Assembly (NCBI GenBank): GCA_973895155.1
Contig: OZ316892.1
Location: 4,734,510 to 4,798,509 of the forward strand
Direction: 5' to 3'
From: Marsupella aquatica
Lineage: Eukaryota; Plantae; Marchantiophyta
DNA length: 64,000 nt
The position numbers and the translations under genes were made by a program. Below the pieces are notes generated by a model, which did not search any database, was not told the DNA's origin, and worked only from the letters and a program-made list of their open reading frames with translations. Numbering within the stretch: the stretch's first letter is position 1; each line of letters opens with the position of its first letter. Shown piece after piece: positions 5,201-63,933 of the stretch.

Positions 5201-5404
5201 ACAGGCATTTTGCGACCGGATCATGCAAAATTCCATGGCAAAGTGGTCCCGAATGACCATGTAGTAGTGTTGTTGACTACAGTGATTGTATCTGATTGTA
5301 ATTTGCCATTTCCGAATAGAGACGATGATCCACCTCAGGAAATAATTGCAGATGCAGTAGGATCTCTTGTGCTCTGGCCATCAGAGTGTGTTAGTCTGCA
5401 GTGA
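2233..5404 (+). CDS. CACTA second gene (TnpA/ORF2-like, multi-exon; boundaries approximate)
   Basis: ORF 2938-3600 resembles the Ptta/En-Spm domain (ERHRLKRMW..PPP..QWTRLI..SNARGKVK..GRGSY). ORF 4811-5404 ends in a Tnp1-like C-terminus (VGTG..FHGKVVP..LPFP..AVGSLVLWP). Short exons with GT-AG borders lie between. An 18-bp repeat x4 at ~2998-3072 encodes PGRGG(T/R). Confidence 0.75.
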
Positions 5405-23770: not shown

Positions 23771-23807
<37 letters not shown>

Positions 23808-42805: not shown

Positions 42806-43897
42806 ATGGCGAACTTAGAAAAGTTGCAATTCCCCGCTTTAGAATTAGAAGGTAGTAACTACCTTGCCTGGTCTTTAGATATAAAGACCCATCTTAAAGC
42901 CAAATCCCTCTCACGCGCCATAGAAGCCCACATTCCAGAAGCAGAAGAGGCCCAGGCATTAGTCTTTATCCGACGTCATTTACACCAATTCCTACAAATG
43001 CAATATTTGCATTTGAGCTCACCTCGAGAGCTATGGCTGGCTATCCAGACGAGGTACGACCACCAGAAACTGGTGGCGCTACCTCGCGCCAAACAAGACT
43101 GGATGAACCTTAGGGTTCAGGACTTCACTTTAGTCTCAGCCTATAACAACGAGCTATTTAGGATAACCTCTACGCTCACCCTATGCGGCGAGACAACATC
43201 CGACGATGACCTACTGGAAAAGACCTTATCCACCTTTCACTCCACAAACCTAATACTTGCGACTCAGTATCGCAACATGAAGTTTACCCAATACTCAAAA
43301 CTCCTATCACATCTTTTGGTTGCTGAACAACAACAGTTATTGCTCATCAACTCAAAGAAGCGACCAGCTGGAACCTTAGCGCCCACACAGTTAACAGAAG
43401 CACATGCCATAGAAAATGGCGAAGCTTCCACTTCAAGCCAACAAAACCCTAAAACTACTAAACAAAGTAAAGGGAGAAAACATAACAATAACCCCAACAG
43501 GGGGAGTTACTTTAACCATAGAAACCAAAGAAACTTTAAAAACCGTCCATTCAATGGACGTAAGCAACAGCGTTTCCGCGGCGGCAGATATAATAGAAAC
43601 CGCAAAGGCGGAAACTATAGGCAAAACAACCAATCAAGGAGTTTCCAACGCTCACCTACGAAACTATGCCACCAATGTGGCATGAACAATCACCTTGCCC
43701 GTGACTGCAGAATCCCAAAACACCTTAAGGAACTATATCAACGTTCCTTGAAGGAAAAGAAACAAGAAAGCACACCACGTGAGACCCATGGAACTTTCAT
43801 GGAATCTCACGACCCATTTCAGGACTTTGGCCCAAATCCTGAAACACACCTAGTTGCGTCTACGTCTACATCAATAGACCTAGATAGCCATGCATAA
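42806..43897 (+). CDS. gag: Copia Gag
   Basis: Copia Gag-like N-terminus (NYLAWSLDIKTHL, LWLAIQTRYD) and CCHC knuckle CHQCGMNNHLARDC. Confidence 0.9.
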   Translation: MANLEKLQFPALELEGSNYLAWSLDIKTHLKAKSLSRAIEAHIPEAEEAQALVFIRRHLHQFLQMQYLHLSSPRELWLAIQTRYDHQKLVALPRAKQDWMNLRVQDFTLVSAYNNELFRITSTLTLCGETTSDDDLLEKTLSTFHSTNLILATQYRNMKFTQYSKLLSHLLVAEQQQLLLINSKKRPAGTLAPTQLTEAHAIENGEASTSSQQNPKTTKQSKGRKHNNNPNRGSYFNHRNQRNFKNRPFNGRKQQRFRGGRYNRNRKGGNYRQNNQSRSFQRSPTKLCHQCGMNNHLARDCRIPKHLKELYQRSLKEKKQESTPRETHGTFMESHDPFQDFGPNPETHLVASTSTSIDLDSHA

Positions 43898-46800
43898 TTG
43901 ATAGCGGTACTACACACTCCATCCTACGGGATAGAAAGCTATTTCATAGAATCACACCCTCTAATCGCTCAATCATGACAATAAATGGTTCTAACCAGAT
44001 AGAAGAGGGCAATGGCCCAGCTTCCTTGAGGTTACCTCAAGGCACAGAAATACATATAGAATCAGCTATATATGCACCTCAAGCAACTAGAAATCTTTTA
44101 AGCTTTCGAGACTTAAGAGCGAATGGACTCCACGTCCAAACTGGGAACACAAAATCCCAAGAGGTTCTCCACATTGTTGAAGTTACACCTCTAGGAAAAA
44201 TAATAAGAGAAACTTTATTCTCGTACTCATGTGGGTTCTATCTAACACACATTGAATGCCTACACAATACAATTCAAGCCAACTCCTTGAACAAGCTATG
44301 GCATACACGCCTAGGCCACCCTGACCAATCAATGTTGAACAAAATAAAGAAGCATGCTCAAGGCATACCAAACAATATCCGCCATATTACGCTAACTACA
44401 CCATGCTCAGCATGCTCACAAGGCAAACTAATCGCTAAACCCTCATTTTCAAAATTGCCAAACAAAATACCTGAATTCCTAGCATATTTGCATGCTGACA
44501 TTTGCGGCCCGATTAACCCACCTAGCGGACCGTTCCGCTACTTTATGGTGATAATCGATGCATCAACTAAATGGTCAAATGTGACCTTACTTTCCACACG
44601 CAATTTAGCCATACCCCGCATTCTAACGCAGATTTTGCGCCTGAAAGCACAATTCACAGATCAACCCATTAAGACATTGCGCATAGATAATGCGGGGGAG
44701 TTCACATCATCCACTTTCGATGATTTTTGCACATCACTTGGTATTGATATTCAATACCCAGTACCACATGTCCATTTTCAAAATGGATTGGCTGAAGCAA
44801 TTATCAAGCGCCTACAACTAATAGCACGCCCCCTTCTAATGCAGGCACAACTACCTGTTACTGCATGGGGCCATGCTATCTTGCATGCTAACGCATTAAT
44901 ACAATATAGGCCATCTGCATTTAATGATTATAGTCCTTACCACCTGAATAATGGTAGACAACCTGACCTAACCCATCTTCGATCGTTTGGATGTCAAGTT
45001 ATGGTTCCCATAACTCCACCCAAACGAACAAAGATGGGACCCCAACGACAGTTGGGGATTTATGTCGGATATGACTCTCCGTCAATTATCCGATATTTGG
45101 AGCCTACCACAGGTGATCTTTTTAAGGCTAGATTTGCAGATTGTCATTTTGATGAAAATATTTTTCCTAAACTATATAACCCTGACACAAACCCACCACC
45201 ACTTTTGGAGTGGGAACGCACTTCCCCATTTTGGGAAGATATTAGAACAAATCAGGGGGAGAAGGAAGTACAACGCATCTTACAACTCCACAAGATAGTG
45301 GAGGAGTTACCTGATTCCTTTGTGGATACCACACAGGTAACTCGGTCGCATATTCCTGCGGCAAATGCACCAGCGAGGATCCAAATTCCAGTTAATATAG
45401 CTGGAACTCAACAACCTCGACAAAAACGAGGTCGACCTCTCGGTGCAAAAGATAAACAACCACGAAGACGACCTTCGTCTACACCTAGTTCACCACTCAT
45501 TACTTCGAGCTATTCTCCAAGTAACGACGAAATATCAATCCATTACACTCATTCTGGTGAAATCTGGGACCGACAAGTCACCATCACAAATGAATGTTTC
45601 GCATCCATGGTTGCTAAAACCATTACGGATGAAACACCAGAACCATTAACCATTATAAAATGCCAGAACAGGCCTGACTGGCCTAAATGGCAAGAAGCTA
45701 TTAATGGAGAACTTGATTCTCTATTAAGTCGAAACACATTCGGCTCAGTGGAATTAACACCACCAGATGTCCATTTAATTGGATATAAATGGACCTTTGT
45801 CCGTAAACGTAATGACAAAGGACAAGTTGTCCGTTATAAAGCCCGCTTAGTCGGGAAAGGCTTTACTCAACAACCTGGTATTCATTATGATGAGACCTAC
45901 TCACCAGTAATGGATAGCATAACTTTCAGATACCTTATTAGTTTTGCAATTTTTCATAAACTAAAAATGCGACAAATGGATGTCGCTACTGCATATCTTT
46001 ATGGGACTTTGGACACGTGTATTTATATGCGTGCACCACCAGAATTAGAAGCACGTAAGCGTGCTTTAGCTCAAGGAGCTAAATCCCATATCCCATATTT
46101 ACATAAGCTCATTCCAACATCATCTAATTCTTCTACTAATGTGTCTAACACACATTCTGACACCACTGTGTCCACTGTACGGCATACCCGCCGTGGACTA
46201 GCTATCCACGTGTTGAAGGCTCTATATGGCCTTAAACAAAGTGGCAGGGTATGGTATCAAAGATTTACCGATGAGATGATATCCATGAGATTTTCCTATG
46301 ATGCTATTGCACCATGCTTATTTATTAAGCATGTTGATGATGAATTTGTCATCATTGCGATCTATGTTGATGATTTAAACATTTTTGGCACTCCAAAAAT
46401 TACTGAATATACCATCACCACTCTAAAGTCCACTTTTGAGATGAAAGACCTTGGTCAAACCAGTTTTTGCTTAGGTTTACAACTCGAAATCTTGCCAACT
46501 GGCATGTTATTGCACCAAACCACATATACTGAAAAAATCCTGAAACAGTTCAACATGCACTTAGCTCATCCACTGACATCACCAATGGTAATCAGATCCT
46601 TAGAAAATAGTACTGATGTTTTTCGCAAATGCGAAGAACATGAACCAACCTTAGGACCTGAAACACCTTACCTTTCAGCTATAGGTGCACTTATGTACTT
46701 AGCTAACCAAACTCGACCAGACATCTCATTCGCAGTAAACCTTTTAGCAAGACATAGCGCAAATCCCACCTCACGCCACTGGAATGGCGTTAAACACATA

Positions 46801-47367
46801 TTCCGTTACTTACGTGGACACACAGACACGGGATTATTTTTCCCGTTTAACTCTACACATGAGATTGTGGGATATGCTGACGCTGGTTATCTTTCAAATA
46901 CCGACACTGCAAAATCTCAAACAGGATACGTCTTCCTTAGTGGAGACACAGCTATTTCTTGGAAGAGCGTTAAACAAACTTTAACAGCTACATCTTCTAA
47001 CCACTCCGAAATTTTAGCTCTTCATGAAGCTAGCCGAGAAGCTATATGGTTACGATCACTAATAAACCACATACAAGTACAAAGCGGCTTCAACGGCCTA
47101 ACTCAACCTACTAATATATTTGAAGACAATGCAGCTTGTATTCAACAGATCATACGAGGATTCATTAAAGGTGATCGTGTGAAGCATATCGCACCAAAGT
47201 TCTTTTACACTCATGAACTACATGGAAAAGAAATCAATGTGATACAGGTAACAAGCGAAGACAACTGTGCTGACCTATTCACCAAATCGTTGACACCAAC
47301 TATTCATCAACGACACTGTCATAAGATTGGTCTTCGGAGCTTACGCAAGATGATGTCAGAGACTTGA
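43888..47367 (+). CDS. pol: Copia Pol (protease, integrase, RT, RNase H), intact
   Basis: The frame is open from 43888: CIIDSGTTHSI (PR); LWHTRLGH..CSAC, HADICGP, RIDNAGEF, QNGLAE (INT); YKARLV, MDVATAYL, LYGLKQSG, YVDDL (RT); YADAGY, EDNAAC, ADLFTK (RH). Confidence 0.95.
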   Translation, partial: PCIIDSGTTHSILRDRKLFHRITPSNRSIMTINGSNQIEEGNGPASLRLPQGTEIHIESAIYAPQATRNLLSFRDLRANGLHVQTGNTKSQEVLHIVEVTPLGKIIRETLFSYSCGFYLTHIECLHNTIQANSLNKLWHTRLGHPDQSMLNKIKKHAQGIPNNIRHITLTTPCSACSQGKLIAKPSFSKLPNKIPEFLAYLHADICGPINPPSGPFRYFMVIIDASTKWSNVTLLSTRNLAIPRILTQILRLKAQFTDQPIKTLRIDNAGEFTSSTFDDFCTSLGIDIQYPVPHVHFQNGLAEAIIKRLQLIARPLLMQAQLPVTAWGHAILHANALIQYRPSAFNDYSPYHLNNGRQPDLTHLRSFGCQVMVPITPPKRTKMGPQRQLGIYVGYDSPSIIRYLEPTTGDLFKARFADCHFDENIFPKLYNPDTNPPPLLEWERTSPFWEDIRTNQGEKEVQRILQLHKIVEELPDSFVDTTQVTRSHIPAANAPARIQIPVNIAGTQQPRQKRGRPLGAKDKQPRRRPSSTPSSPLITSSYSPSNDEISIHYTHSGEIWDRQVTITNECFASMVAKTITDETPEPLTIIKCQNRPDWPKWQEAINGELDSLLSRNTFGSVELTPPDVHLIGYKWTFVRKRNDKGQVVRYKARLVGKGFTQQPGIHYDETYSPVMDSITFRYLISFAIFHKLKMRQMDVATAYLYGTLDTCIYMRAPPELEARKRALAQGAKSHIPYLHKLIPTSSNSSTNVSNTHSDTTVSTVRHTRRGLAIHVLKALYGLKQSGRVWYQRFTDEMISMRFSYDAIAPCLFIKHVDDEFVIIAIYVDDLNIFGTPKITEYTITTLKSTFEMKDLGQTSFCLGLQLEILPTGMLLHQTTYTEKILKQFNMHLAHPLTSPMVIRSLENSTDVFRKCEEHEPTLGPETPYLSAIGALMYLANQTRPDISFAVNLLARHSANPTSRHWNGVKHIFRYLRGHTDTGLFFPFNSTHEIVGYADAGYLSNTDTAKSQTGYVFLSGDTAISWKSVKQTLTATSSNHSEILALHEASREAIWLRSLINHIQVQSGFNGLTQPTNIFEDNAACIQQIIRGFIKGDRVKHIAPKFFYTHELHGKEINVIQVTSEDNCADLFTKSLTPTIHQRHCHKIGLRSLRKMMSET

Positions 47368-50300
47368 CTGGAGCTATTACCACTATCAAAATTTTCAAAC
47401 TAATCATGAGGATCACAAGACTGTACTCTTTTTCCTTTAAGAACTATAGATTTTTCTCTACTTGCAAATAGAGTTTTTATATTAAGTTACTAAAGGTTTT
47501 AACGAGGCAGTCACTACTACATATTTGCCAATTTTGCGAAGGCGTTTTACAAGAGGAAGAAAGCTTTGCAAGATTAATCTCATCGCTAAACTTGCGATAC
47601 GATACGCATCGCACTTAGCGAATCTACACACATCGCAACACATAATTGCGAAACTTAGACCATTGCAACATTTTATGACACTTCAGGTATCGCAAAACAT
47701 TTCCGAAGCAATTACCATTGAACAAGTTAGCGATCTTTACCGCTTCGCAAATTCATTGAGATGCGCCGGAAAACTAAATGGTTGCGAATATTTAAGCATC
47801 TCAAAATATTTTGCGAGTCTTATTGTCTCGCAAATGAGCGATGTTTGTGGAATATATGGCTAACTTGTGATAGTAATAGGCTCGCAAATCCTGTGCCTGT
47901 CTAGGGTCTCATTTTGTGAATGTTTTGGTTTCGCAACTTTGAGATGGTGGTATCTTCGGAAGTTTGCGATGAGGGGATGATGGCAATTAGGGAGCAGTTA
48001 AGTATCGCAAATGTAGCGACGAGTTTGCGGGTGTAGGGGTTTCGCAAGATGTTTCGCAAAATATTATGAGCGCTTCAAAGAGGTGGAAAAGGAATGGGAT
48101 TGGGGAGGGAGGGTAAAGGAGGGTGGATACATGTAATTTTTAGGGAGGGACAATGAAAAGGAGGAGGAAGGGAATGGGGCTAGGAGGGACAAGGAACGGA
48201 GGGATCCAAGAGGGAGGATACAGGTTTAGGGGGCACAAGGAAATGAGGGAGGAGGAAGGGTATGTAGATATAGTTTTAGGGAGGGTTTGGATTTAGGGAG
48301 TGAAAATAAAAAGGAGGGAGTTTAGGGTTTAGAGAGGGACAAGGAAAGGAGGGAGGGTATTGGTTTAGAGAGGGACAAGGAAATGAGGGAGGTTTAAGGG
48401 TATAGGTTTAGGAGGGAGGAGAGAAGCTAGGTTGTATAGGTAAGAGTGGGGGACAGGGGTGGAAAGTAAGGAAATTATAGGGTTGAAATAGAAAGCCAGG
48501 GGTTGGGACAAGGAGAGGAAGGAGGAAGGAGGGTTTAATAAGAGGGACAGACAATGAAAGAAAGGAGGAGGGAGGTGGGTACAAGTAATAAGGAGAACAG
48601 CTAGGGGGGGATTAGGAAAGCATGGAGGATAGAGGACTACAAGCAACATGAGTTTTCTTTGCATAAAGTCTACCAAAAGGTGTGGTGAGTGTGGGGTAGG
48701 GATGGGAGATATAGAAAACAACATTTGAAAATGATATACTTACAAAACATAAGTTTATTGATAATTGAGAAGCACATATTTCTCCATTCTACCGAGAAGA
48801 GAAATCTTCATATCATCAAATCTAACTATATATCCGTGTAGCTATATATCCACAAACACAGACCCCTCAAACTTGGTCCTCATCATCTTCAGGTTGGGAC
48901 ACAACCAGAATATCAAGCTTTTCCCCAACGATTGAACAAGACCGTGGCACATATGTGATGACAAGTGACCATTCCTCTAGGTTTGGGGGGTATGGAATAT
49001 AGAAACATTGTTCCACATGACTTGGAAAAGTGAACGGCTCTGATGTTTGCCAATGAGATGGCTGGAAACTAGTGGCAGACGTCTTCAGTCGTGTAAATCC
49101 ACACTCATCTTGAACCACAGTAGGATTGTTACCTGCAAGGTTCACTTTGAACCACTTGCACTTGAAGACATACTCTTCAAACTTTGATTGTGCATCATAA
49201 GATATCACTAGAATCTCTTCTACCTTTCCATAATGTGGCACAACATCTCGAATAATATTTGTGTCATGGCGACTGCTGCGGGAATCTTGAGAGAATTGTC
49301 CTTGAACTCCACAATCAAAGGTACGACCCCTCTTCTCATCAAGGGAAGAAATCCTAAAATCCATCAAACCATAAGGATATGTTACACAAAAATAGACACA
49401 AACATATTCCAATTAATTGAACACACCAAGAATCTGCCTCTTCAATATACGTGCTTGTATTACAAATGAATTAAATTAAACCAAGTGATTCAAATCAAAG
49501 GTTACTAAGGTAGATGGAGATCACCTGAAATGTCTTCCTTGTGTCCACATTGCTGTCCTTGTTGTAACCACTCTCAAGGGACCATGAACAATGGTACGAA
49601 CATCATCTGTGATAGCCGGAAAATGTAATACACTCTCTCCCCTGACCACCATGTCATCCACCTCAACTAACTTCTCCTTCATATAGTCAAGGTACTTTGG
49701 AAAAATCCTTGGTCTTGTGCTGTTACTTTTGGCATCCTCATAGAAATCCCTCCATTCTTCCATGATAGTGTTGTTACTCAACATGAATGTGGTCAGTTGT
49801 TTCACCTCCACTGGTGTCAACATGCGAGTTTTCCTAGCACCTGTTAAACGATTCTCTTCATCTTCCCTCTCCTCTACCCAAGTACGGGGAGAGGTACAAT
49901 CAATTGTGGCCAATATGTTACTACAATAGAACATACTCTCAGCTGCTAAGTATCCTGTAGCCATGCTTCCCTCAACCCGTGCACGGTTACGTACATAACC
50001 TTTTAACACTGCCATGTATCGTTCTAGCCAATACATCCACCGACAATGCACAGGACCTGCAATGGCCACCTCATGAACAAGATGAACAAGTAAATGCACT
50101 TGACAGTCAAAAAAGGAAGGAGGAAGGGCCTTCTCCAACTTGCATACCACCTCTGCTGCCAAAACCTCCATCCCAGGGATCTCATCAGTATATATCTCCT
50201 TAGAGCATACCCATCTCAATAGTTTTCCCAATGACCAAAGGGCATCTTGCACTTCTTCACTTGCCAAACCTATTATGGCCATAGGCAATATGTGCTGCAA

Positions 50301-52079
50301 TAACCTATGGTAGTCATGTGTCTTGAGATACCTTGGCCACTTATGATTGTCCTCCATCCCAAAGGCCTTTCGGAGATTGGCACCATAACCAGTAGGAAAC
50401 CGCATGTCTCCTATGCGATTCTGAAACTCCCTTCTCTGGCCAATAGGAAGCACCCATGGAGCTGAAGGTCGATGCTCAATCCCTGTGATAGGATCACTTA
50501 TGACCCACATGTCTGGATGCATCTCAAGATCCTCACAAGCCTCCCTGAAGTTAGTGTCTTTCTCTCCATAGAAAGCCTTTATCAAAGCCTTTCTCACATT
50601 TCCCTCAATGTGCATGGGGTCTAATAGATGGCGGATCTTCAACTCACCCCAATAGGGCAAAGTGGTTAATATACTCCACCTTGTCAAGCCACTACCGTCA
50701 AATTGCATGGGATCCTCTGGGTCTGCCACTCTTGCAGCCATGTCTTTCCAGTGTGTAAAAGTTGTTGGCTCAGGTACATCACGCTCGTCACCAAAGGGCA
50801 TATCAATAGAGGAAAATAGTAGTGGGTCACGCCTCATCTGATGTCCCATTGGAAGAAACTTTGTATGCCCAAGATAAACAATCTTGCGAAGATGTGATGA
50901 ATACTTGGCTACATCACCAAGGCTTGGGCCACAAGTGGAGCAAGCCTTGTAGCCTTGGGTTTGCAACCCACTCACAAAGCCAAATCCTGGTCATATAAAC
51001 ACACATTATGTTAGGATTAGCACATGGAAATGAGGGGATACCATGCATTAGAATATGATGCATTTAAACAATAAAGTTCTTACCTGGGTAGTCATGCATG
51101 GTCCACATACAAACCCCTTTGAGTTTGAAAACCCGTGGGGTACCCCCTGTAGTCTTTCGACCATCATATGCCCATACTCCTTCCCATAATTTCTGGAGTT
51201 CCTGAACCAGTAATGTCAAATAGGTGTCCATGTTCTTCACCTTCTTTGGCCCTGGGATAATCAAAGATAGCAACAAAAAACCCTTTTTCATGGACAACCA
51301 TGGTGGAAGGTTGTAATTCATGAGAACCACAGGCCAGACCGATGTAGGTCTCCCCTTCCCTCCAAGTGAATGAGGGCTAACTCCATCTGATGCCAACCCC
51401 AGTCGCACATGCCGAGGGTCACGCTCAAAATCTGGCCATGTTGATTCCACATGTTTATGAGCAGGAGAGTCAACTGGTAATCGCATGACACCGGGCTCCA
51501 AACGATGTTTCTTGTGCCATACCATCAACTCGGCCAAGTCAGAACATCTATACATGTGCAACAAGCGAGGAATTATGGGGAACCAACGAACTGCTTTCCT
51601 TGGTACCTTCTGGGTTAGCCTCGAGGGTCTCACTATATGGAGGACCCCCCCATCACCTGCGACGTTTTCATGCCTAGACCCCCATACTTATTAAGTTGAA
51701 ATTTTTTTTCCTCCCTCTTTCTTTCTTCTAAGAGTCTAAAATCCAAATTGTATTGCCCCTATAATTTGTGAAGTAAAGTGTCACATATCAATATAAAATG
51801 CCTAGAAAGAAAAGATAAGTCTATGTCAGTACCTTGTGAAGTCGTATGTCAGACATGGCACGCCCTGCAACAGTTCTTGCACCTTTGTCGACCTTAAACT
51901 TTGATCATTTCAATGCATCATTTATATTGTGTACCTAAAAGGTCATCCCAATATAAACCTTACGTGCATAAGTGGGATGGCCTTTAAGGTCACAACATAA
52001 ATAATCCATTCCACCCATTGATCACCAATCCCATGCTCCATCCATACTCCATTTAAAACTTATGTTGAGAGATGTAACA

Positions 52080-52139
52080 TGTGACGGAGGGGAATTGAAC
52101 CCCTAATTGAGAAAGGATCTCAAGTTGCCAATCCGTCAC
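52080..52139 (-). ncRNA. Compact tRNA-like structure lacking a D-arm, 3' of the transposase
   Basis: Minus strand reads GTGACGG ATTGGCAAC TTGAG-ATCCTTT-CTCAA TT AGGGG-TTCAATT-CCCCT CCGTCAC A: a 7-bp acceptor-like stem, a 5-bp stem with 7-nt loop, and a T-arm. Function unproven. Confidence 0.4.
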
Positions 52140-52265
52140 CCCCTATCCTATCCCACTACACCCACTAATATTAACAAAATAAAACATATATACAGACTCT
52201 CAAAAACTAAACAACAAAATAAAACATATATACAGACTCTCAAAAACTAAACAGTAACATGATAT

Positions 52266-55200
52266 TCATACCATTGTTTGAAGATACTGATCCAAAGCAC
52301 GTCTATCTATTGGATCCAACACATAGATACGATCCATAACCCCTTCTTTCATGGTTAAACTAACACTAGCAATGACCATTTCAATATCCATCCATTTCAA
52401 ATCAGTGGTATCATATCTGAATTCACTTTTGCTCTTACCAATAGGACTATACCAATTTAACAACAGTTCACAAATGTTACCTGATTGCCCTGCAAGTGGA
52501 GTTGGCCTATCCATCAAATCAATTGGTGACCGACAATTGCCCCACCTACTGCCATACTTCTGTCTCATTTGGACAATCCAACCCAACCAAAAATATTTCT
52601 TACCTATTGAGATTGCCTCCACCACAACCTTATTCTTTCCTCCCTTTCTTTTTCCAGATCTAGTACTTGGAGCAGGACTATCATCAGACTCAAATGCAAT
52701 TGCACAATCAGTGCCAACATCAACAAAACATGAGTTAGGATTGACTTCTTGCACTTTTCTCTTGCCAGTACTATAGTATATCACTTGTTTCACCCTTGTC
52801 AGCCTATCTTTTGACAAATGCGGATTTCCTACCAACTGGCTTACCAGAGTGGATTTGTAAATCACCTTGCCTTCATAAGTAACAGTAGGCACTACCTTGG
52901 TACGATTCTGTACATTAGTTACAGCATGGACAACTGATCCAAACACATGCCGAACTTCATGACCTAATGTCTCAAGCTCATCTGAGGGGTCTACATCAAA
53001 CTGTATATCATCTCTGTGTACATCATCTGAATGCATCTCAGGAACAACAATGGGATCTGGTTCTGTTAACCATGCATCTATTCTATTCAGATCATCCTCA
53101 GGATCTTCCAATTCATGAAAATCTCCAGTTGGGCGAGGACCTATGTCTGGTGGTTGGTGCTCTACTTGCTCCTCAGAATCATTGCAAACAATTGCTTCCT
53201 TCAGAACCACCTCTAGTGGCCAGGTCTCACTTTCCACAACCCAAGGACATGTCCACCATCTCTTTCTAGCTGCTGGTAAGGAACTTCGTGGAGACATCTG
53301 CAATTGATGCATAAGATCCTTAGCAGCAACAAAACCTTCTTTAAGGGCTGCAACCACTAATTCATTAGTCTCAATGAGAGAATAGTCAAGTAGATTTGGT
53401 GCTTCCTCCCCTTCCCCTATAGGATGAATCTTCCCCCATACATGATCTTGTTTCTTATGTGAACGACCTATCTTCAAGCCTTCTGGTCCATATTCTAGGG
53501 CAACAAGCCGGTTCAGTCCAACAGCACTATCCAACAGAGAGCCAAAATCATAATTCCGCTCATGGCCACTCATGCCTCCTACCTTGCTGAAGAAAATCTC
53601 ACAACAATCTGAACCTAGCAAGTGGAAGGGAACACCTAGATGTGGGAACTTATCTCGAAAGGCACAAATTAACAGCACAATGAAATGACATGACATGTTA
53701 ACATCATGAAAAGCCTGAATAGACATCATGTCTTTCTCAGTGTGTGCTGCAAAGTTCCCACCCACTGAATGGTCACCAAACCTCAACCACAATCTCCACA
53801 AACGTAGAAAGAATGAAACCTTGGATGCTAACACAATACGGGACCTCAAATCATGAACTGGAGAAAAGAAAATATCTAAGTAATCTGCACAAATCTCCAA
53901 GTACAACTGAGTTCCTAAACTTCGTTCATGTTGTACATCTCTCCTCTCATACATATCTTTCAGACATTGCTGCACTCTTCTTGCTGCTATTCGTTGTGGA
54001 CCTGCCCAATTCTGCCGGTCAGTCCTATTCACATCATCCCAAGCCATGCCATGTTCATGAATTGGATAATGATTGTAGACATTAGCTACATAAGATAAAG
54101 ATGCATGTTGATCTCCTAGCACCAGTAAAGAAGACACTCTGTCTAAGGGGTTTATCATCTTTTTCCCATTATGAGGTTGGTCTTGGTCACCAAAGCCATA
54201 CAAATCTCCATTTGGTAGAATTGAAACAGAGTATGTCCACCCTTCCCACCCAACTCCGTACCTTGGGTATGATCCATTCTGCCCTCTGTAATCTTCCAGC
54301 ATCAGCTTTCGGCGACGTGCATCACCATCACTAGCATGTCCAAGCAAAGGGCCTACCATAGCTCTACAATATTCATCCCAAAAAGCCTTTAACTGGACCC
54401 AATGCTCTCGTACCCAAGAAGCTGTGAACTTATTACAAGTTGGAAGTGCACACACAGCCAATTTAGGTAAGGACTCATGCAGAGGATTCACAATCACAAC
54501 TCGGGCATACATGCACTTGGGGCATTGTTCAAATGTACTTACAATTTTATCATACCCCTCATCACCTTCACCAACTAGAATTTCCAAACCATAGGAGCAT
54601 ACATGCTGCTCTGAAGGTCCACAGAAACCAATGAGAGTATCATACTTTGCCTCCCACCTGAAACACAGACATGCAATTTTTCAATATCACAGCAATTCCA
54701 GCCAAGTGCTACTTGTAAAGTCATTAAAAAAACAATTGGAAAAATGTCCAGTTCCAATTACCTAGGGCGTTCTTTGATCCTTGTTTCATCCTCAGCAAAG
54801 ATAACAGGCACATCCCCCTCAATGCCCAATGAGTGCTTTGCAGCAAACAACACTCTAGCAATCTCCTGAAAGGTTTCCTTCCGTAACCCGGTTCGAAAAG
54901 GTGTGAGTTTTGCTCTATCACGTTTTAGGGTCACAAGGCTAGGGGCTGTCAAGTTTCGTGCAAAACAATGAGCAACTTGACGGCCCCCAAATTGGAACAT
55001 AGCCTGAGCAATAGCTCGAGTCCTATTACTGTAACGATTACCTTTTGGCTTCCTGCCTAAATTGCGAGCTACATCCTTCAAGAAATCCCACAAACCCTCC
55101 TTACCACCAAATGCACCATTCCTGTGTCCATTCAAAATACTCCTAAGAAACAATCTCAAATCCTTCCTGTCTGCTGCAACTCCTAACAACTCCTCTAGTT

Positions 55201-56842
55201 TTCGTTTCCTGGTGCTCAAGGCACATACTTTCTGAGCCTGCAAAGCTAACAACCAACGCTCTTTTCGTCGCACAGAGTTCAGGTTGTGCACTTGATCTCT
55301 TAACTCTGTGTTGGTCAAATAATCCAAACGTATACCACCAGCAGTGGTTCGGCTCCCTCTGTGGACTACTGCTTCCGCTTCCCTGTGCACCCGTCCACGA
55401 AAATCATCTTCTAGTGTTATAGAATCACATTCACTACAAGTTAGATTTTCAAATCCTCCTCCATTCTGTGATAACCTCAAGCAATCCTTGTGTCTAAAAC
55501 AGCCTGCTATACTCACAACACTCTCTCTACTTGGATGGAAAACATCCAAGCAACAACTTGGCTCACAATGCCATGTAATTCCCCCAGACTGATAATCTAA
55601 AATGCCAGAAATATCATAAGATATACCCTTCCATAACAGTCGAGGCACACCTCTCTCTACCCATAATCCCCAGCAAAGCAAACTCAGACCAAGATCAACA
55701 GATTCACACACACCTGAACCTGAACCTGAACTGCTGCCTGTCCGGGACCCATCATCTTTAAAGAACTTCAAAATCCCGCTCTGACCAGGATGTAGGTCCC
55801 TAGAATCAGTCCTCTTTGGCCTGCCCCTCTTCCCAGACCTCAAGGCAAGCATTTTTGTGTCATGCCTAGTCTCCAATGCATCCAAGTGATCTCGACTCAC
55901 TAAGTGTGTCCTCAAATTGGGCTCCAAGGTAAGCTTCTTGGGGCACAAGTCAGTGTGAAGCATTCCACAGACAGTACAGCGAACCTTAAACAGGAAAGAC
56001 CTGTTTACATACTCAGGAGTACTGGGATCAGGAACAATAGAGAATAGTTTGCCATCATCCCCAAGCTCAGCATTCAATCGCTGAACTATCTCAACACCTA
56101 CTTTGATGGCGTCTGCATGATCATATTCTGGCTTCTCAGAGATGTCTGCTACCTGAACCAAAGTAGAAGGAATGCCCCTTCTCCGACAATAGTTATCCTT
56201 GTGCTTATTGAAGACCAAGTGTTTGGTCTTAAAATTACTAAAGCAATTGGAGATGGATTTAGGGTTCTGAGAGTTGTCTGCATTGCCATAAGTTTCCCTA
56301 CATTCAAGACACTCCAGATGCCCTCGAACATCTGTCCCCTCATCCCAGGTACGAATTCTCCAATTGTGATCACCATAACCCTTCTTATGTACCCATTTCT
56401 CTAACCTCATCCACTCATCTTTCCATAGCTTTGATGGGACATCTCCCATCAATTGTGACTCAAAAGAAGCCCTTACAGGGGAGGGTGCTAGTGCTGTTGG
56501 CCTCAGTTGTGGTGTCTCAGTATTTGGACCCAATGATGCAGGAGTGCAAGGATGACAGGGTACTGGTGGGATCCTCCCACCATCTCCAAGTTCTTGTTGT
56601 ACAACAATAACTCTTCCATCCAGCTCAGACAGATCAATTAATTTCTCATGTACAAGTTTCACTCGACCAGGAAGTCTCTCATCCCAAAAATCGAAGTCAA
56701 AGTCTAGAGTAGAGGCAATACGAGCCCTAAAATCATGTAGGGTGTGTCCTTCTTTGAATGACAAAACACAGATTGGTAAATCAGCCTTGTCATCCCCAAC
56801 TTTGCGTATTAATTTAACAGAGTTGGGTTTAGGGGCTGCCAT
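52266..56842 (-). CDS. Intact ~1490-aa DDE transposase, P-element-like, 2 exons
   Basis: Exons 56842-54762 and 54657-52266, with a 104-bp GT-AG intron, join as ..IFAEDETRIKERPRWEAKYDTLIGFCG.. Then HASDGD, DQPHNGKKMINPL (DxxH), DRQN and SDCCEIFFS. Two C2H2-like fingers in the N-terminal half. Confidence 0.8.
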
Positions 56843-57341
56843 TGCAATACAAATCTAGAACATGCATAGCACCATTGCTTTTGGAGTCGATAACAGAAAG
56901 ACCTGCACAAATACATTTGAAATACACACAAGGGAAACACATTAGGATCTTCAAGAGATGCAATGACAACATACACATTCTCATGTCAGTAATGTACATA
57001 ATGTCAGCATACATTTAACAATAGAAGTGCTAATAGGCCAAAACACTTTATAATGCAATCCATCATACATGCAAATGTATTCAGTGAAAATCATGATATA
57101 CCGTTAAAGTTGGATAAAATATCTTTAGAAAAAATATCCTTTTTGCCTGGTTTTCTAACAATTCTCGAGGTTTAGTGCTTTTGCTCATCAAAATGCAGCA
57201 CTATTAGTGACCGTAATTATGACAAAATGTCAACACTAATAAAATTGGGTACTACCACCCATGATGCAGCTTAAGTATATGCCTTGCTCATACCCCACTA
57301 AGACGTTGAAACCTAAGTAATAGGTTTGTTCATTATTCAGA

Positions 57342-58091
57342 TCACTGGAGCCATGAAATGTGGTCCCTGATTGGAGTCTTCAGGTGTGGATCAATAGGAT
57401 GACGGGGGCAATAAAACATCTGTCGCTGTTGTCCATGTGCTTCATGTTCCCAGATGTCCCTATCATGAGCAAACCCTTTGCTTTTGATCATCTGGAGACA
57501 ATCTGTATGCCAGGCATTTGGACATCGTAAACATTGTACCATGTTCTTGACCATCTGACCCTCAAGACTCTGATAACATGTCACACATGTATGCAGTGGG
57601 CAGGACTTTGCAGCAGCTACCAAACACCCAAAGCAATAAAATCGTACACAAAAATGATCAGAGCATTTTCGCACAATTGTAGGTGACGGTCCCACAGTGC
57701 GGCACCCATAACACATGGCCTGGTCCTGGTTACAATTTGGGCAAAACCATGGCTTCCCTCCATGATGGAGGGGAAGGACTACACAGGGGCAAGAGTCATT
57801 AGGGGCTTCATCTCCAACCACATAATGAAATTGCCTGTGACATGGCCCATCACAAATTACCAACTTCCCACCATGCTCACAAATTGCACAAACATGAGGG
57901 CTGGTTTGTAGAATCTCTTGCTCAGAGAACAAGGGAATACACAATACCTCTTCTAAAGAGGACTGTGTTGCTTTCTTTATGTTTGAAGTCCTTGTCGGCA
58001 TGGTTACAACTGAAATCATCACAAAGCACATCACATATGAGAGGGACATGTATGATACTGGGCAATCCATAGAACTTGGAGAAATCCACAT
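57342..58091 (-). CDS. EDM2/NSD-type atypical PHD-finger array, stand-alone and intronless, carried by the transposon
   Basis: VCAICEHGGKLVICDGPCHRQFH..CPNC..CYGC..C..C..CPLHTCVTC..CLRCPNAWHTDCL..IWE..YCPRHPIDPHLKTPIRDHI follows the plant EDM2 PHD region as recalled, including the tail YCxxHxIDxxLxTPxRDH. An alternative ATG lies at 58001. Confidence 0.8.
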   Translation of the reverse strand: MWISPSSMDCPVSYMSLSYVMCFVMISVVTMPTRTSNIKKATQSSLEEVLCIPLFSEQEILQTSPHVCAICEHGGKLVICDGPCHRQFHYVVGDEAPNDSCPCVVLPLHHGGKPWFCPNCNQDQAMCYGCRTVGPSPTIVRKCSDHFCVRFYCFGCLVAAAKSCPLHTCVTCYQSLEGQMVKNMVQCLRCPNAWHTDCLQMIKSKGFAHDRDIWEHEAHGQQRQMFYCPRHPIDPHLKTPIRDHISWLQ

Positions 58092-58343
58092 TTGAAGTAG
58101 TTACAAACCTGCTCCAATGATCTGCAAACCTCCCTCCCAGATGAAGTCAACTACACAGTGCAGCCTGGACACCCACCAACCAAGACATACATAAATACAA
58201 TGCCAGATTGCGAAACTTTGCCACATAATGGGAATGAAAATTATTCTCATATATCATGGATGGTACAATTGCAGCCTTGCAAACAAAGGCCTAGTCATCC
58301 CGGACCTCAAGTCATGAACAACGCATCCATGTACTATCAGGGA

Positions 58344-58742
58344 CTACAATGTCAAGCATCCATGGGCTGTAACCTTAGCTTGACCTGGAATACTATCTGG
58401 GGCTACAATATCAAGCTCAGTTATATGTGGAATACTATCTAGGACTACAATGTCAAGCGTGTCCGGGATGACAATCTTGCGTAAAAGACACTCATTTTGA
58501 GGCCAAATGGTTGGCCTTATACAAGAGCACCTCCAGCGACGTGTGACAACTTTGCCATGCTTTCCCATGTATGTCCTAGTAACAAGTCTTCCACGCATTT
58601 TCAAGTAGAAGCAATGGAACCATTCAAAATTGCCATCACCAACCCTGCACTTCACACAAGATTCGCACCAGCAGCATTCATCTGGATGCTGCAAAAGGAG
58701 CTTCTCATAATTCGCTTCTAATGTAATGCCCAATTTAGCCAT
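58344..58742 (-). CDS. Small Cys/Trp-rich hypothetical ORF inside the P-like element
   Basis: ATG-initiated 132 aa with CCWCESCVKC..WFHC..WRCSC. No family recognised; its 3' end runs into short repeats. Confidence 0.25.
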   Translation of the reverse strand: MAKLGITLEANYEKLLLQHPDECCWCESCVKCRVGDGNFEWFHCFYLKMRGRLVTRTYMGKHGKVVTRRWRCSCIRPTIWPQNECLLRKIVIPDTLDIVVLDSIPHITELDIVAPDSIPGQAKVTAHGCLTL

Positions 58743-60879
58743 GGCACTATTTTTTTTACTCGGTGAATGGCCAGGCGATCAGACGTGCAATGACAGGCAA
58801 CTTACAATTCACTAGGTACAGTATGTGCTCTAGCAAACTGCTTCACCGCAAGTGCTGGTGCTCACAGCTGCAAGCACTGATTGCTTTTGCAACCTGTGAA
58901 CAAAATTAAAACCACCAGTTCAATAAGTTTCAAATGCTGCAAGCGCTGAAGACAACCAATTGGCCATGATGCATGTTACGACAGCAATAAACAAATAATT
59001 GGGCTCAACAGACCTGAATAGCTAACCTGAATAGCTAACCTGAATAGGATCATGGACCTCTCATAGCTATGGTGTCCTTCCTACATTACACATTGGTCTA
59101 ATTTATGCAGTGTTTCACTATGATTGTGTTCCATAGAAGAGCATCCAATCTGGCTGACCATTGGAGGAAGCTTGGGCTGGGTCATAGCTACAGCAATTAC
59201 TCCTCTGCAAATGCTATTTGTTGGTAACACATGTTTACTCATCAGTAGACGAATGAAGCATCTGAGGTTTTTGAAACTTGTGCTCTGATGAGGGAGTGAG
59301 TGACGTGGGAGCCATGATAATCATAGATTCAGTGCAAAAGCAAAATCCATGCTCAAAGGCAAACGTGGAAAAATTGGGTATATGTTCTTCACTGCCAAAG
59401 CTTCTGTTTGCGCAACAAAATCCACGAAAGGAATGAAGGAACAAGGGGGAACTCCAGACTCAAGAGCCTCAATTGCTGCATTGTGGAAACGCGTTGCGTG
59501 GGAGAAGTCGTTGGCTTGTAGAAGAAGTAAAAGTGTGCTGGTGAAGGATTTTGTGGTCGGGGTGCATCATAAGGTTGACACAGAGAAGAGAGAGGTGTGG
59601 AGAGGCGAGGAGAGGAGTAGAAAAGTAGGAAAGGCCGTGTAAGGCAGTCGATAAAAAGCGAGTTAGGTTTGGAGTGTCCTCTCGACAGCAAAGGATTTCG
59701 TGTGTGCTGAATTTGTTGCTGGTCCAAATTCCAGGAGCCAGTCAGTAACGGAATAGTGGAATTTTGGGAATAGCAGATGCTCATCAGTCGCAGCATCTGC
59801 GTATGTTTTGTCATCTGGGGAGAATTCAATGAGGTTTGTGGTTTTGGGGAAGGCTGCTGTGAAGAGTTTGTGTTCGTGTGGAGGGATTGGTGGCAAATTT
59901 TGATTGGTGCAGGGCAGAAGAGATGGGAGAGTGACAGGATGTGGAGATCGGTTGGCCGTAACCAAGGCAGCGCCAATGACGACGAGGAGCGCGAAGAGGC
60001 AAAGGCGGAGGAAGATGAGGAGGTAGAAGAACCAGACCACCAAATAGAGAATTTACTACATCAAAGACACTACAGAGATGAGCGCATCAATGGGCTACAA
60101 CATATTCAAGTGCGGATCCCTTTTTTGCAATCAACTCACGGAAATAGAGGATTTACACTTACTTGCCCCACCACAAATCATTCTTGGAAGTGTCTTCCTT
60201 GACAACACGTTTGTCCTTCGGAGATCGGCCAGTTTTCGCCCCGGAAAGCGTGGCAAGAGCCCCTGTCCAGGTGATGTACAAACTCTTCTCGTGCTTCAGA
60301 GCCTGTTCGTAAAGCGCTGCAAAGAGAAACGGCAAAAACTTTAGTCATTATAATTGAATCAGAACATGGGAACAGACAGAGACAGCTTCCAAACGCTCAA
60401 CTAAATCCTGAAGCAACAACCATGACGATCGCGACCCGTATGCGGCGAATGGACACAGCTATGCTAGGACAGGACACAACGAGAGGGCACCGATCACCGT
60501 ATCTAGAGAGCTGATTTATTCGTCTCCTACAAATCATAAGTCGCACAGTAGAGTTTCTACGCATCTTAACGTAGGAACGAAGGTAAAAGGTAGTTTTTTT
60601 ACCAGGCATCCTTGGAAATGAAAGCAACTTTTGAACTATCGACATGATGTGACAGAGTACAAGAAAGGCCTTCAGTGCATGTGAAACAGAAATGCTAGAA
60701 CTACTCATGAGTTCACATGAAACACAATTCCCCGGTCTAACTACTTTCAAATCTCGATGGGCAAATCTAATGCATATGACTTGCGCAAGCAATGTCTATG
60801 GAACACATCGGCTACGACCGCTACCAGATAAGGTGTGCCATGCGTGGTACATATGGGCTTCAAACAGTAGCAAGCAAGC

Positions 60880-61840
60880 ATGATTGAGCGTCAAACAATA
60901 GCAAGCAAGCAAGCACGATCGTCAAAGCAGGAAGCGCCCACCTCCTGGTTGAGCAACACAGAAATGCTGGCAGCAGCCCTGGCAATCCTGTTTGAGCAAG
61001 CAACAATGCAACACTCTCGCTCCCGTTTCAGCAAGCTAGTAGCTCCCGTTTCAGCAAGGTAGCAGCTTCCGTTTCAACAAGCAGCAACGCCACACTCCCG
61101 GCACCCACCTCTTGTTTGAGCAGCTGCAACGCAGCACTTGCAACAGCCACACTCCCACCCGCACTCCCTGTTTGAGCAACAACACAGCAGTCACATAAAC
61201 TTTCCTATCATTTCAGCAACAGGAACGTAGCACACTCCCTCAACCAAGACAATAGCGCACCTATACACTCCAACCTTGCAGCGCAACACTCTCGCCTAAT
61301 CCTTCATTCCCGGGTTCACTCCAAGCAGCAGTGCAACCAAGAAGTCTCGCTCTCCCCTTTACTCTAAGCAGCAGCGCAGCTGAGAAGTCTCGCTCTCCCC
61401 TTCACTCTAAGCAGCAGTGCAGCTGAGAAGTCTCGCTCTCCCCTTCACTCTAAGCAGCAGCGCAGCCAAGAACGACCTTGATCCTTCACTCCCAAGTAGC
61501 AGCGCGCAGTCGAGAACTCTGGGTTGATCCTTCACTTCAAGCAGCAACAGCAGCAACGCAGCCGAGAGCGCAACACTCTCGCTCTCCTCTTCACTCCAAG
61601 GCGCAGCCAACAACTCTCGCTCGATCCTTCGCTCTAAGCAGCAGTGCAGCCAATAAATGTTGCTTGATCCTTCACTCCAAGCAGCCGTAGCAGCAGCGCA
61701 GGCGAGACCACAACACTCTCGCTCGATCCTTCTTCACTCACAGCCGAGAGCACAACACTCTCGCTTGATCCTTCTTCACTCGCATCCAAGGTCACAACAC
61801 TCTCTCTCGATCCTTCTTTGCTCCAAGCAGCAGCACACTC
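60880..61840. repeat. Degenerate GCAGCA / CACTCTCGCTC minisatellite near the 5' end of the P-like element
   Basis: Many variants of TTCACTCYAAGCAGCAG..CTCGCTC, about 40-50 bp apart, most regular at 61320-61830. Confidence 0.75.
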
Positions 61841-63245
61841 GTTTAGACCCCCGTTTACACCATTTGTTGCAAGGTACAAACAAAAGAGTCTCTCATCCCA
61901 AACAGCGGGTGGGGCCAAAGGGATATTGGAGGGAAATGACACGGGAGGAGACTAACAAGGGCGGCCAATTGAGGAAACTAGACATGTTAAACGGAACAAT
62001 TTCAAACTTAATCCCACTCAAACCCTAAACGTGAGTCCCCAAAAAACCAGACCCACTTAAATCATTCTCAAATTAGAATCCATGTTAAAATAAACATGAC
62101 TTAGGAAAATATATTGAGAATGTTATGTGTGCCATGTGTACCAATGATATAGTGACACGTGTAATTTACATAGTCCGACACAAAGACCCCCTAACTTCCT
62201 TGTATGCCTTCCATCTACATAGTCAAAAATATTAATATCCCTATTATTCTTACAAGTTGTCCAACATATAAAATTGACCCTATTGTTCTTACACAAATCT
62301 TCTTAAGTCTTCCGAGAAACCCAATTAACGGACCCTATACTTAGTCGCACGTGATATGAGATTTTCGCGAAGTGAGACCCCCGAGGGGTTAGCATGTTTG
62401 GCTCATACCGTGGCTCATGACACACTGTGCATTCTGTGATATGGGCTGTATCCCCGTGAAATAACATGCAATCATTCACACAGGCATGAATAATATGGTA
62501 ATCCATACCAATGGATGAGAGAACCTTCTTTGCATCCTTCCAGGTCCCTGGCAACACATTCTCCGAGGGTAACATCAAGTCATGACAATATTCAAATATG
62601 TCTGATAACATAGAATTGCTTGTCTTGTGTTTGGCTTGAATGTTCAAGAGCCCCAATATGGCAGAAAGACGGCTCAACCGAGCACCCTCAAAAATAGGTT
62701 TTCGAGCATGTTCCTCTGCCTCTTTCCATTGTTGTTGTCCCTCTGGAGTATGTTGTGGCCGTGGGTCATTTGAAGGGCCAACCTCATGACCAATGTGAGG
62801 CACATCATCCTCAACATTGGCACCAAACCAATCAACCATGAAGTCATCCATGGCTCTATCTTGATCATGCATGACCTGGTCATCAGTCCGAGGTGCGGCT
62901 TCCTCATCAGCACCACCTACATCATTACTTGATGAGGAATCACCCTCTGATGGTTCTCCCTCTTCTGGCATACCCATCTCCCGATATGTTGCTCTCAACC
63001 TTCGTGGTAACATTTGTTGAGATGGTTGCGCATTCTATGCATATTACAACCAAAAAACCTCCTCATGTATATTTGACCAAGAACAACAAATTAAAATAGA
63101 CTTAACACCATTCATTCAAGACATTAAGAATTAAAGTAAATGCATGGGCTAAAACCTTATTACTCCAAAATGAGCCCAAAGGCCATATATATAATAGTAA
63201 ATGGGAAGTCCAAAATAGGTGCAAGAGGATAAAGGACATGATTTC

Positions 63246-63933
63246 CTAATCCCACTCATAGTGTGTGAATAACTCATCTCCTGCTCTAATGGTCCTAGTA
63301 GCAAGAACTAAGCAATAGTCCTTATGATATGTCGTGCCATATGGTGCCGGCATTGGACCATCAGTAAAAACCCACTCACAATTGGCCCTACGTTTGGGCC
63401 GAGTCCCCACTGTACTATTTATGAAACCAGCAATATTCCCATTACGTATGGGATCACCATCTATCACCCGTTGCTCACTATACCTTCTAGTGCTACCATC
63501 AAAAGTATCCATCTCTAGAGCATATGTTTTCCACTCAGGATGTTGTGCAAGGATCATGTTCCAATGTCTTCTCTTGTAGATGGGTCCACCGTATGGGAAC
63601 AAAGTAGGACCCTCTCTACCACGAACACTTGACCCACCCTCCTCATCCATGATGATATCCTCACAAGCAAATACTCCATATCCATGTCTCTCCAAGTGTG
63701 GAAGTTTTCACAATCCAACGTCTACCCCAAACCACAATCTCCTCATCAAAATCTGTAAAATAAGGCAAGCCAAGAGTGATAGGTTCCCAATCCTTGATGA
63801 TAGAGGCACACTTGCCAGTGAATGAACAAACACCCCACCTACCCTGAACTAGTGTTCTGGATGGGTCATTGGGTGCTCGTGGCCTCCTGTTGGATTGGGG
63901 CCTGGACCGGGGTCTTCGTGTCTCAATGGGCAC
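63246..63933 (-). pseudogene. SET-domain gene upstream of the CACTA transposase, one frameshift
   Basis: RWIVKTSTLGE [frameshift in GAGAGA at ~63690] HGYGVFACEDI..LFPYGG..YALEMD..IDGDP..NIAGFINS..ANCEW..VLATRTIRAGDELFTHY gives the SET motifs GxG, (R)FINxS and ELxxxY. Confidence 0.78.

What the first reader, a model, noticed from the sequence alone, without database searches (positions are those of the whole stretch)
51619..62386. Intact 10.8-kb P-like DNA transposon with a 6-bp TSD, possibly an undescribed lineage
Seen: 16-bp TIRs beginning CCTCG with one mismatch, an exact 6-bp TSD GGTTAG, in-frame restoration of the interrupted CACTA gene, and an unbroken two-exon ~1490-aa ORF. Established: the order D (AEDET), D (SDGD), DxxH (DQPH..KK..N), long insertion, E (SDxxExFF) is the P-element/THAP9 catalytic architecture. 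Canonical P elements make 7-8-bp TSDs, begin with CA, carry a THAP domain and are not a standard land-plant superfamily. Here the TSD is 6 bp, the termini are CC, and C2H2-like fingers replace THAP. Inference: a young, possibly active, P-related lineage that carries cargo genes.
Basis: partly seen in the sequence, partly recalled or inferred. Interest (0 to 1): 0.85.

Follow-up and report, generated by a model that had tools for sequence, protein, structure and literature searches.

The report
THAP-less P-type transposon, 8-bp target duplication
This is a real, intact 10.8-kb cut-and-paste jumping gene, likely from a liverwort or similar plant, whose enzyme is predicted to fold like the fruit-fly P element's; it duplicates the usual 8 bases on insertion rather than the 6 first claimed, so it is likely an unusual branch of a known kind rather than a new kind.

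Summary
The element is real, but its headline oddity is a one-base misreading. The ends parse two ways: 16-bp TIR with 6-bp TSD, or 15-bp TIR with 8-bp TSD GGGTTAGC (51620-62385). Both give the same empty site. Other copies decide it: 7 of 12 contigs reaching the left end lack the supposed terminal C, and complete relative L001 has an exact 8-bp TSD. So the TSD is 8 bp and the end is CT. The two-exon 1490-aa ORF is intact. A Riccia homologue folds like Drosophila P transposase (Z 25.7; next 11.6). Still unusual: no THAP match, non-CA ends, ubiquitin-like and C2H2 modules, a weakly BAH-like C-terminus, a separate 219-aa PHD-finger gene, and a family spanning liverworts, a fern, a coral and a brittle star. 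Nine paper searches found no description; Repbase and Dfam could not be checked. The scan earlier noted other THAP-less P-type elements in fungi, but no look-alike of this sequence. Verdict: new variant of the P superfamily, moderate interest; present activity not shown.

The parts
51612..51619 (+). Left copy of the 8-bp target-site duplication (GGGTTAGC)
   Evidence: (joint with both=8)
51620..51634 (+). Left 15-bp terminal inverted repeat (CTCGAGGGTCTCACT); element starts at 51620
52266..54657 (-). Transposase exon 2: D804/D806, D853-x2-H856, D907-x2-N910, D1044-x2-E1047, acidic linker, C-terminal beta domain with weak BAH-like fold match
54658..54761 (-). 104-nt GT-AG intron (predicted); needed to keep the frame
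   Evidence: gapless alignment to intronless relatives
54762..56842 (-). Transposase exon 1: ubiquitin-like fold (about 5-85), two C2H2-type fingers (C178/C181/H208/H214; C289/C292/H313/H319), family-wide Cys/His module (390-472), long helix (511-545), helical domain, first catalytic D685
57342..58001 (-). Separate 219-aa gene with NSD-type PHD fingers; 9 same-sized homologues (43-82% identity)
58344..58742 (-). 132-aa Cys-containing ORF of uncertain reality, no Pfam hit
61288..61824 (.). Internal arrays of 42-43-bp repeats near the right end
   Evidence: D2, D12, D20
62371..62385 (-). Right 15-bp terminal inverted repeat (CTCGGGGGTCTCACT); element ends at 62385
62386..62393 (+). Right copy of the 8-bp target-site duplication (GGGTTAGC)
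62394..63034 (-). 5' part of the interrupted host CACTA transposase ORF
49521..51611 (-). 3' part of the interrupted host CACTA transposase gene (Transposase_21, DUF4218)

Best explanation
This is an intact 10,766-bp DNA transposon (51620-62385) with 15-bp terminal inverted repeats and an 8-bp target duplication, inserted into a CACTA transposase gene, whose 1490-aa enzyme is predicted to be a divergent, THAP-less P-superfamily transposase that likely moves the element by P-type cut-and-paste. Shown: the ends, the 8-bp duplication, the open reading frame, the empty site, multiple copies with different flanks, and family-wide conservation of D-E-T, D-G-D, D(2)H and D-x2-E. Predicted: RNase H fold with a P-type helical insertion (model of a Riccia homologue, 47% identical over residues 639-1489). 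Inferred mechanism: N-terminal zinc modules bind the ends in place of THAP; the long helix dimerises the protein; D685, D804 (or D806) and E1047 bind metal to excise the element and join it to a target cut with an 8-base stagger, with a loose preference for G...C 8-mers. That preference is what made the ends look one base longer. GTP use as in Drosophila P is likely (about 60%) from the conserved D907-x2-N910 and D1044. A chromatin-reading role for the BAH-like C-terminus and the PHD gene (target choice or avoiding silencing) is speculative (about 25%).
For: TSD: both parses fit. Among loose-end rows shown (21 of 42), 7 of 12 contigs aligning out to 51620 or further have a base other than C at 51619. 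L001 has a 26-bp perfect TIR starting CTCG, an exact 8-bp TSD GTTTTCAT and an intronless full-length ORF; L025 has an 8-bp repeat GTTACAGC with two extra C on one side. Fold: best match 6p5a, Z 25.7, rmsd 3.0 over 344 residues, 14% identity, chain range 162-565; next Transib 11.6, RAG1 10.1, Hermes 8.6; the same top hit among 48,161 representatives; Foldseek E 9.7e-8. Pfam PF21787 hits 5 of 53 relatives, best E 2.6e-4. Conservation in 81 rows: D804 79, D806 81, D853 80, H856 81, D907 80, N910 77; E1047 74 of 74 ungapped; D1044 65 of 74. DmTNP triad and D(2)H signature: PMC8230255 passages. GTP contacts D444, N447, D528: PMC10824691 passages. P makes 8-bp and Galileo/1360 make 7-bp TSDs: PMC3698922 passages.
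Against: No Pfam hit on the window's own transposase exons and no sequence hit to the P transposase in PDB, even with profiles: the link to P is structural. The catalytic core was folded from a homologue, not from the window protein. No THAP match, and the ends are not CA (CA is recalled). L004 has both TIRs but no TSD of any length, so 1 of 3 two-ended relatives gives no support and 1 of 3 is imperfect. 5 of the 12 left-end contigs do carry C at 51619, and one X6 contig already differs at 51620. The GTP-residue mapping rests on motif order and spacing; no residue-level structural alignment was printed. No tree with canonical P transposases was built.
Confidence: 0.85

Rival explanations
1. 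One reading: a new P-related lineage defined by 6-bp TSDs and CC termini.
For: The 6-bp/16-bp parse fits this one locus exactly; 5 of 12 left-end contigs have C at 51619.
Against: 7 of 12 left-end contigs lack that C. L001 has an unambiguous 8-bp TSD, with T, not C, outside its TIR. The empty site cannot tell the two parses apart. No two-ended relative (0 of 3) shows a TIR-consistent 6-bp TSD.
Confidence: 0.03
2. The family is a separate superfamily-rank sister of P: same fold and TSD, but its own DNA-binding module, CYCGG termini and no THAP.
For: 14% structural identity to DmTNP; no Pfam P-domain hit in 48 of 53 members; 0 of 49 proteins fit a THAP pattern; shared C(C/T)CGGGG..ACT ends in plant-type and animal-type loci; the family spans plants and animals.
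Against: Z 25.7 to P is more than twice the next family. The D(2)H signature, the D-x2-N and D-x2-E motifs and the 8-bp TSD all fit the P definition. Rank is partly a naming matter.
Confidence: 0.1
3. The element is a hAT, Kolobok, KDZ/Zisupton or Transib/RAG-type transposon.
For: An 8-bp TSD is also typical of hAT and Zisupton (recalled); Transib, RAG1 and Hermes give Z 8-12.
Against: These scores are far below P. No hAT, KDZ or Kolobok-type Pfam family appeared among 53 members. The TSD is neither TTAA nor 5 bp.
Confidence: 0.02

Closest known systems
Drosophila P element transposase (DmTNP, PDB 6p5a/6pe2), with Galileo, 1360 and THAP9 (P superfamily)
   Same: Predicted fold over DmTNP residues 162-565 (Z 25.7); DDE with D(2)H; helical insertion; motifs matching the order of GTP contacts D444/N447/D528; long helix before the core; short TIRs; 8-bp TSD.
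   Different: No THAP match; CT or CC rather than CA ends (CA recalled); 1490 aa against 751 aa; extra ubiquitin-like and two C2H2 modules; a different Cys/His module; weak BAH-like C-terminal domain; separate PHD gene; 10.8 kb against 2.9 kb; hosts include liverworts and a fern.
Unannotated relatives in Riccia sorocarpa, R. fluitans, Calypogeia fissa, Adiantum nelumboides, Amphiura filiformis, Desmophyllum pertusum
   Same: Same family: AEDET, HASDGD, QD..HNGKK, DRQNW, SDCCE motifs. The window protein groups with Riccia proteins (SH-aLRT 99, quick tree); exon 1 is 58% identical to a Calypogeia protein.
   Different: Named only hypothetical or uncharacterized (one UniRef entry says Transposase). 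L001 and L004 are intronless, and none of the 60 loci matched the PHD gene. Animal-type members mostly start near residue 400-450, without the ubiquitin-like and C2H2 part.
Fungal P elements (Pucciniales, Allomyces)
   Same: P-type elements outside animals, rare and patchy (PMC5751038 passages).
   Different: Relation to this family not tested.

Membership tests
P superfamily (catalytic-signature definition) | RNase H DDE triad with D(2)H after the second D | tested here: met
   D685, D804/D806, D853-x2-H856, E1047 near-invariant; signature per PMC8230255 passages
P superfamily (catalytic-signature definition) | Core and insertion domain fold like DmTNP | tested here: met
   Homologue P0003 model, pLDDT 86.8: Z 25.7, rmsd 3.0, 344 aligned; Foldseek E 9.7e-8
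P superfamily (catalytic-signature definition) | 7-8-bp TSD | tested here: met
   8 bp here and in L001; imperfect in L025; none in L004; definition in PMC3698922 passages
P superfamily (catalytic-signature definition) | Terminal inverted repeats | tested here: met
   15 bp, 14 of 15 identical
P superfamily (catalytic-signature definition) | Nesting among P transposases in a tree | not tested
   No canonical P sequences were in hand; the tree holds family members only
P superfamily (catalytic-signature definition) | GTP cofactor for transposition | not testable with these tools
   Only motif conservation: D907 80/81, N910 77/81, D1044 65/74
Canonical THAP-bearing P / Galileo / 1360 / THAP9 group | N-terminal THAP (C2CH) domain, by sequence | tested here: not met
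   No PF05485 hit in the window exons or in 53 + 53 overlapping members; pattern 0 of 49
Canonical THAP-bearing P / Galileo / 1360 / THAP9 group | THAP fold, by structure | tested here: inconclusive
   Searches with the N-terminal model were filled by the ubiquitin-like domain
Canonical THAP-bearing P / Galileo / 1360 / THAP9 group | 5'-CA...TG-3' termini (recalled) | tested here: not met
   CT in this element, L001 and L005; CC in L004, L025, L029, L039
hAT | Hermes-like core plus hAT dimerisation/BED Pfam domains | tested here: not met
   Hermes Z 8.6, rmsd 7.7, against 25.7 for P; no hAT Pfam family among 53 members
Kolobok | TTAA target duplication (recalled) | tested here: not met
   TSDs GGGTTAGC and GTTTTCAT
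KDZ / Zisupton | KDZ and CxC Pfam domains | tested here: not met
   None in the window exons or 53 members at E<=0.1-0.5; no profile-profile test was run
Transib / RAG | 5-bp TSD and CAC ends (recalled) | tested here: not met
   8-bp TSD and CT ends; fold Z 11.6, rmsd 4.8

The most novel reading that the evidence does not exclude
An undescribed, ancient THAP-less branch of P-type transposons, shared by marine animals and non-seed land plants, with its own zinc DNA-binding module and CYCGG ends. Its plant arm is recently mobile and has gained histone-reader-like parts (a BAH-like C-terminus and a separate NSD-type PHD gene) that steer insertion into, or protect it within, heterochromatin. This would give a plant-native P-type transposase and a test case for chromatin-guided targeting.
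Probability: 0.25. Interest if true: 0.68.

Novelty: new variant of a known kind. Interest (0 to 1): 0.45.

Why it matters
P-type transposons are known mainly from animals, with rare fungal and protist cases. A multi-copy, apparently young family in liverworts and ferns, invisible to Pfam at default thresholds, means that plant TE annotation is missing a class, and that over a hundred hypothetical proteins can be named as transposases. An intact P-type enzyme without THAP would show whether GTP dependence and end recognition can be separated from THAP. The 6-bp TSD claim, which would have been a mechanistic surprise, does not hold.

Tried and rejected
6-bp TSD and CC ends: rejected. Frame restoration as a test of TSD length: useless, both parses give one empty site. 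No genome is held for this window, so no genome-wide TSD table. PDB sequence searches with exon 2 and two profiles found nothing relevant. No relatives in viral contigs (0 of 84 pattern matches) or prokaryote genomes (0 of 428). No RNA holder listed; this says nothing about expression. No contig in four runs covered the window's own left junction (depth 0 at 51604-51615); contigs show presence, not absence. Selection test: of 11 listed substitutions in the transposase (from 40 shown of 354 rows), 5 are synonymous, 6 are not and none is a stop, too few to judge. The cargo region matched none of the 60 loci. THAP was not listed in fold searches of the N-terminal model, which the ubiquitin-like domain dominated. 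The wide profile search of protein representatives and the ESM Atlas gave no answer, so the outer reach of the family is unknown. Paper searches listed no description of this family. Yuan and Wessler 2011, Majumdar and Rio 2015, Ghanim 2019 and Kojima's review were not held and not read. bioRxiv supplements (trees of 10.1101/2021.09.26.461848) are closed and may include members.
Full report
Observation. The 15-mer core occurs only twice in the window, against 0.12 expected. Taking the insert out restores the surrounding CACTA transposase frame: 398 aa open, against 214-237 aa for offsets of one or two bases. The flanking ORFs hit Transposase_21 and DUF4218. The transposase lies on the minus strand: ATG at 56842, a 104-nt GT-AG intron at 54761-54658, stop at 52266, 1490 aa without internal stops. 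The spliced junction matches intronless relatives residue for residue between DET and GFCG.

The TSD is 8 bp, not 6. The locus has two exact parses: 51619-62386 with 16-bp TIRs and GGTTAG, or 51620-62385 with 15-bp TIRs and GGGTTAGC. They leave the identical empty site, so frame restoration cannot choose. No genome was held, so I used public DNA runs. Seven runs from five studies hold the element or part of it. In 4 of 4 runs laid, a joint 51611->62386 with 8 letters fitting either side shows the empty site as real DNA, most simply other copies of the CACTA host. Laying four runs on the left end alone (21 of 42 loose-end rows shown) gave 12 contigs that align out to 51620 or beyond and then run into other flanks. 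Seven break exactly at 51620 with a base other than C before it, four break at 51619 and one at 51617. A terminal base would not vary like this. Five of 12 with C is within chance (p 0.10 at 22% C) and fits a mild target preference. One X6 contig breaks at 51621, and other rows break inside the TIR, where subfamilies differ.

Relatives agree. I screened 35 of the 60 metagenome loci (the longer ones) for TIR pairs and all 60 for the TIR motif; three have both ends. L001 is a complete 6.1-kb element with 26-bp perfect TIRs starting CTCG, an exact 8-bp TSD GTTTTCAT and an intronless full-length ORF, 37% identical. L025 has GTTACAGC on both sides, with two extra C on the left. L004 has TIRs but no TSD. 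The three TSDs, the left flank of L004 and three single-contig left flanks give seven 8-mers; six start with G and five end in C. That G...C bias explains why the TIR looked one base longer. The similar target consensus of Drosophila P is recalled, not from a call. Family ends are C(C/T)C(G/A)GGG..ACT, so not CA.

The enzyme. Neither exon hits Pfam or PDB by sequence. Exon 2 finds 113 homologues: Riccia, Adiantum, Amphiura, Desmophyllum and many unnamed proteins. Exon 1 finds 6, including Calypogeia at 58%. In 81 aligned rows the acidic and histidine motifs are near-invariant, and 5 of 53 members hit Pfam TNP-like_RNaseH_N weakly. Because the first D lies in exon 1, I folded Riccia homologue P0003 (47% identical over residues 639-1489): pLDDT 86.8. 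Its best match is the Drosophila P transposase (Foldseek E 9.7e-8; Z 25.7, rmsd 3.0, 344 residues, 14% identity), far above Transib (11.6), RAG1 (10.1) and Hermes (8.6). The match spans DmTNP 162-565, which by PMC10824691 (passages) covers the HTH, the RNase H domain and the GTP-binding insertion. That paper lists D444, N447 and D528 as GTP contacts. The family's D907-x2-N910 and D1044-x2-E1047 repeat the order and spacing of D444/N447 and D528/E531; this mapping is inference from motifs.

Accessory parts. The N-terminal model (pLDDT 80.8, pTM 0.39) shows a ubiquitin-like fold (Z up to 7.8, many rows), two C2H2-type modules, a beta-rich module with C390/H451/C454/C469/C472, a long helix and a helical domain. 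The four cysteines of that module are invariant in the 25-46 rows that cover them, including animal-type proteins; the C2H2 fingers are covered by only 10-17 rows. THAP was not found by Pfam or by pattern (0 of 49); the structural test was inconclusive. The C-terminal domain (P0003 675-806) draws about ten BAH-domain rows at Z 5.6-7.0. That is consistent but middling, and it could instead correspond to P's own C-terminal domain, which was not in the matched range. A 219-aa ORF at 58001-57342 carries NSD-type PHD fingers. It has 9 same-sized homologues among 18 candidates, mostly with a start Met in the same region and a common C-terminus, so it looks like a small gene of its own, not a torn host fragment. 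Contigs of all four runs cover it, but none of the 60 loci matched it, and I could not show that its homologues sit in such elements. The other ORFs scanned from the remaining 4 kb had no credible Pfam hit.

Lineage and host. A quick tree of 69 core sequences (of 150 BLAST hits; only those aligned over 400 residues or more were kept; the careful search did not finish) groups the window protein with two unnamed proteins and three Riccia proteins (support 99). These sit inside a 28-row group with Adiantum (94), apart from a 40-row group with Amphiura. The host is therefore likely a liverwort or another bryophyte; this is inference from a mobile gene. No canonical P was in the tree.

Age and activity. 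The intact ORF, exact TSD, many different flanks and many contigs at 99% or more identity (123 of 337 in X1) point to recent spread. A joint 51705->62368 in X3 suggests a short non-autonomous derivative. Transcription and current mobility are not shown.

Literature. Seen as passages: PMC3698922 (P 8-bp, Galileo/1360 7-bp TSDs; P-like elements in Trichomonas, dipterans, Ciona, vertebrates), PMC8230255 (signature), PMC10824691, PMC5751038 (rare fungal P), PMC4455052, PMC10952607 (nothing on P). Seen as passages plus one section: 10.1101/2021.09.26.461848 (P is not among the plant-primary superfamilies). Seen as the first of two parts: PMC9035001 (nothing on P). Nine searches listed no description of this family, but Repbase, Dfam and several key papers were out of reach, so 'undescribed' is unproven. 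The scan's notes hold no look-alike of this sequence, but do hold THAP-less P-type elements from fungi, one with a likewise misread TSD (unchecked).

Verdict. It works like a P element and meets the catalytic and TSD definition of the P superfamily. It is not a member of the canonical THAP-bearing group (THAP and CA ends not met). New variant of a known kind; interest 0.45.

Noticed in passing
window 10686-18629: 7.9-kb Mutator-type element: 89-bp perfect inverted repeat (10689-10777 / 18538-18626), a 10-bp direct repeat when the ends are set 3 bases further out, MULE and SWIM ORF pieces inside.
   Followed up: partly
window 42797-47367: Copia-type gag and pol ORFs (366 aa and 1159 aa, overlapping in different frames), open throughout; no LTR pair found by a quick BLAST.
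   Followed up: partly
window 239-5404: A second CACTA element on the + strand (DUF4218, DUF4216, weak Transposase_24).
   Followed up: no
window 63246-63707: SET-domain ORF (E 2e-6) just upstream of the host CACTA transposase gene; possibly CACTA cargo.
   Followed up: no
window 51705 and 62368 (run X3): A joint linking the two ends with five letters between suggests a roughly 110-bp non-autonomous derivative of this family (table 5c).
   Followed up: no
window 58920-61200: Summed contig depth drops several-fold against the transposase and PHD region in X1-X3 and is near zero in X6, so this part may be absent from many copies; contig depth is a poor measure.
   Followed up: no
proteins P0091, P0096, P0108: Distant family members carry a PTM/DIR17-like Tudor domain or a Ulp1-type peptidase domain, so accessory-domain gain recurs in the family.
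   Followed up: no
L020:1-20, L025:967 and 8467, L029:5389, L039:4339: Animal-type loci end in CCC(G/A)GGGGGG..ACTC, the same terminal motif as the plant-type elements; it could link many unclassified non-autonomous repeats to this family.
   Followed up: partly
L035:1-2776: The contig begins and ends with a 123-bp or longer perfect inverted repeat around a broken transposase, so TIR length may vary widely in the family.
   Followed up: no
window 23745-24200 and 36506-36979: Exon-like ORFs that look like pieces of a VMP1-type membrane protein gene and a chaperonin-60 gene (recalled resemblance, not searched).
   Followed up: no
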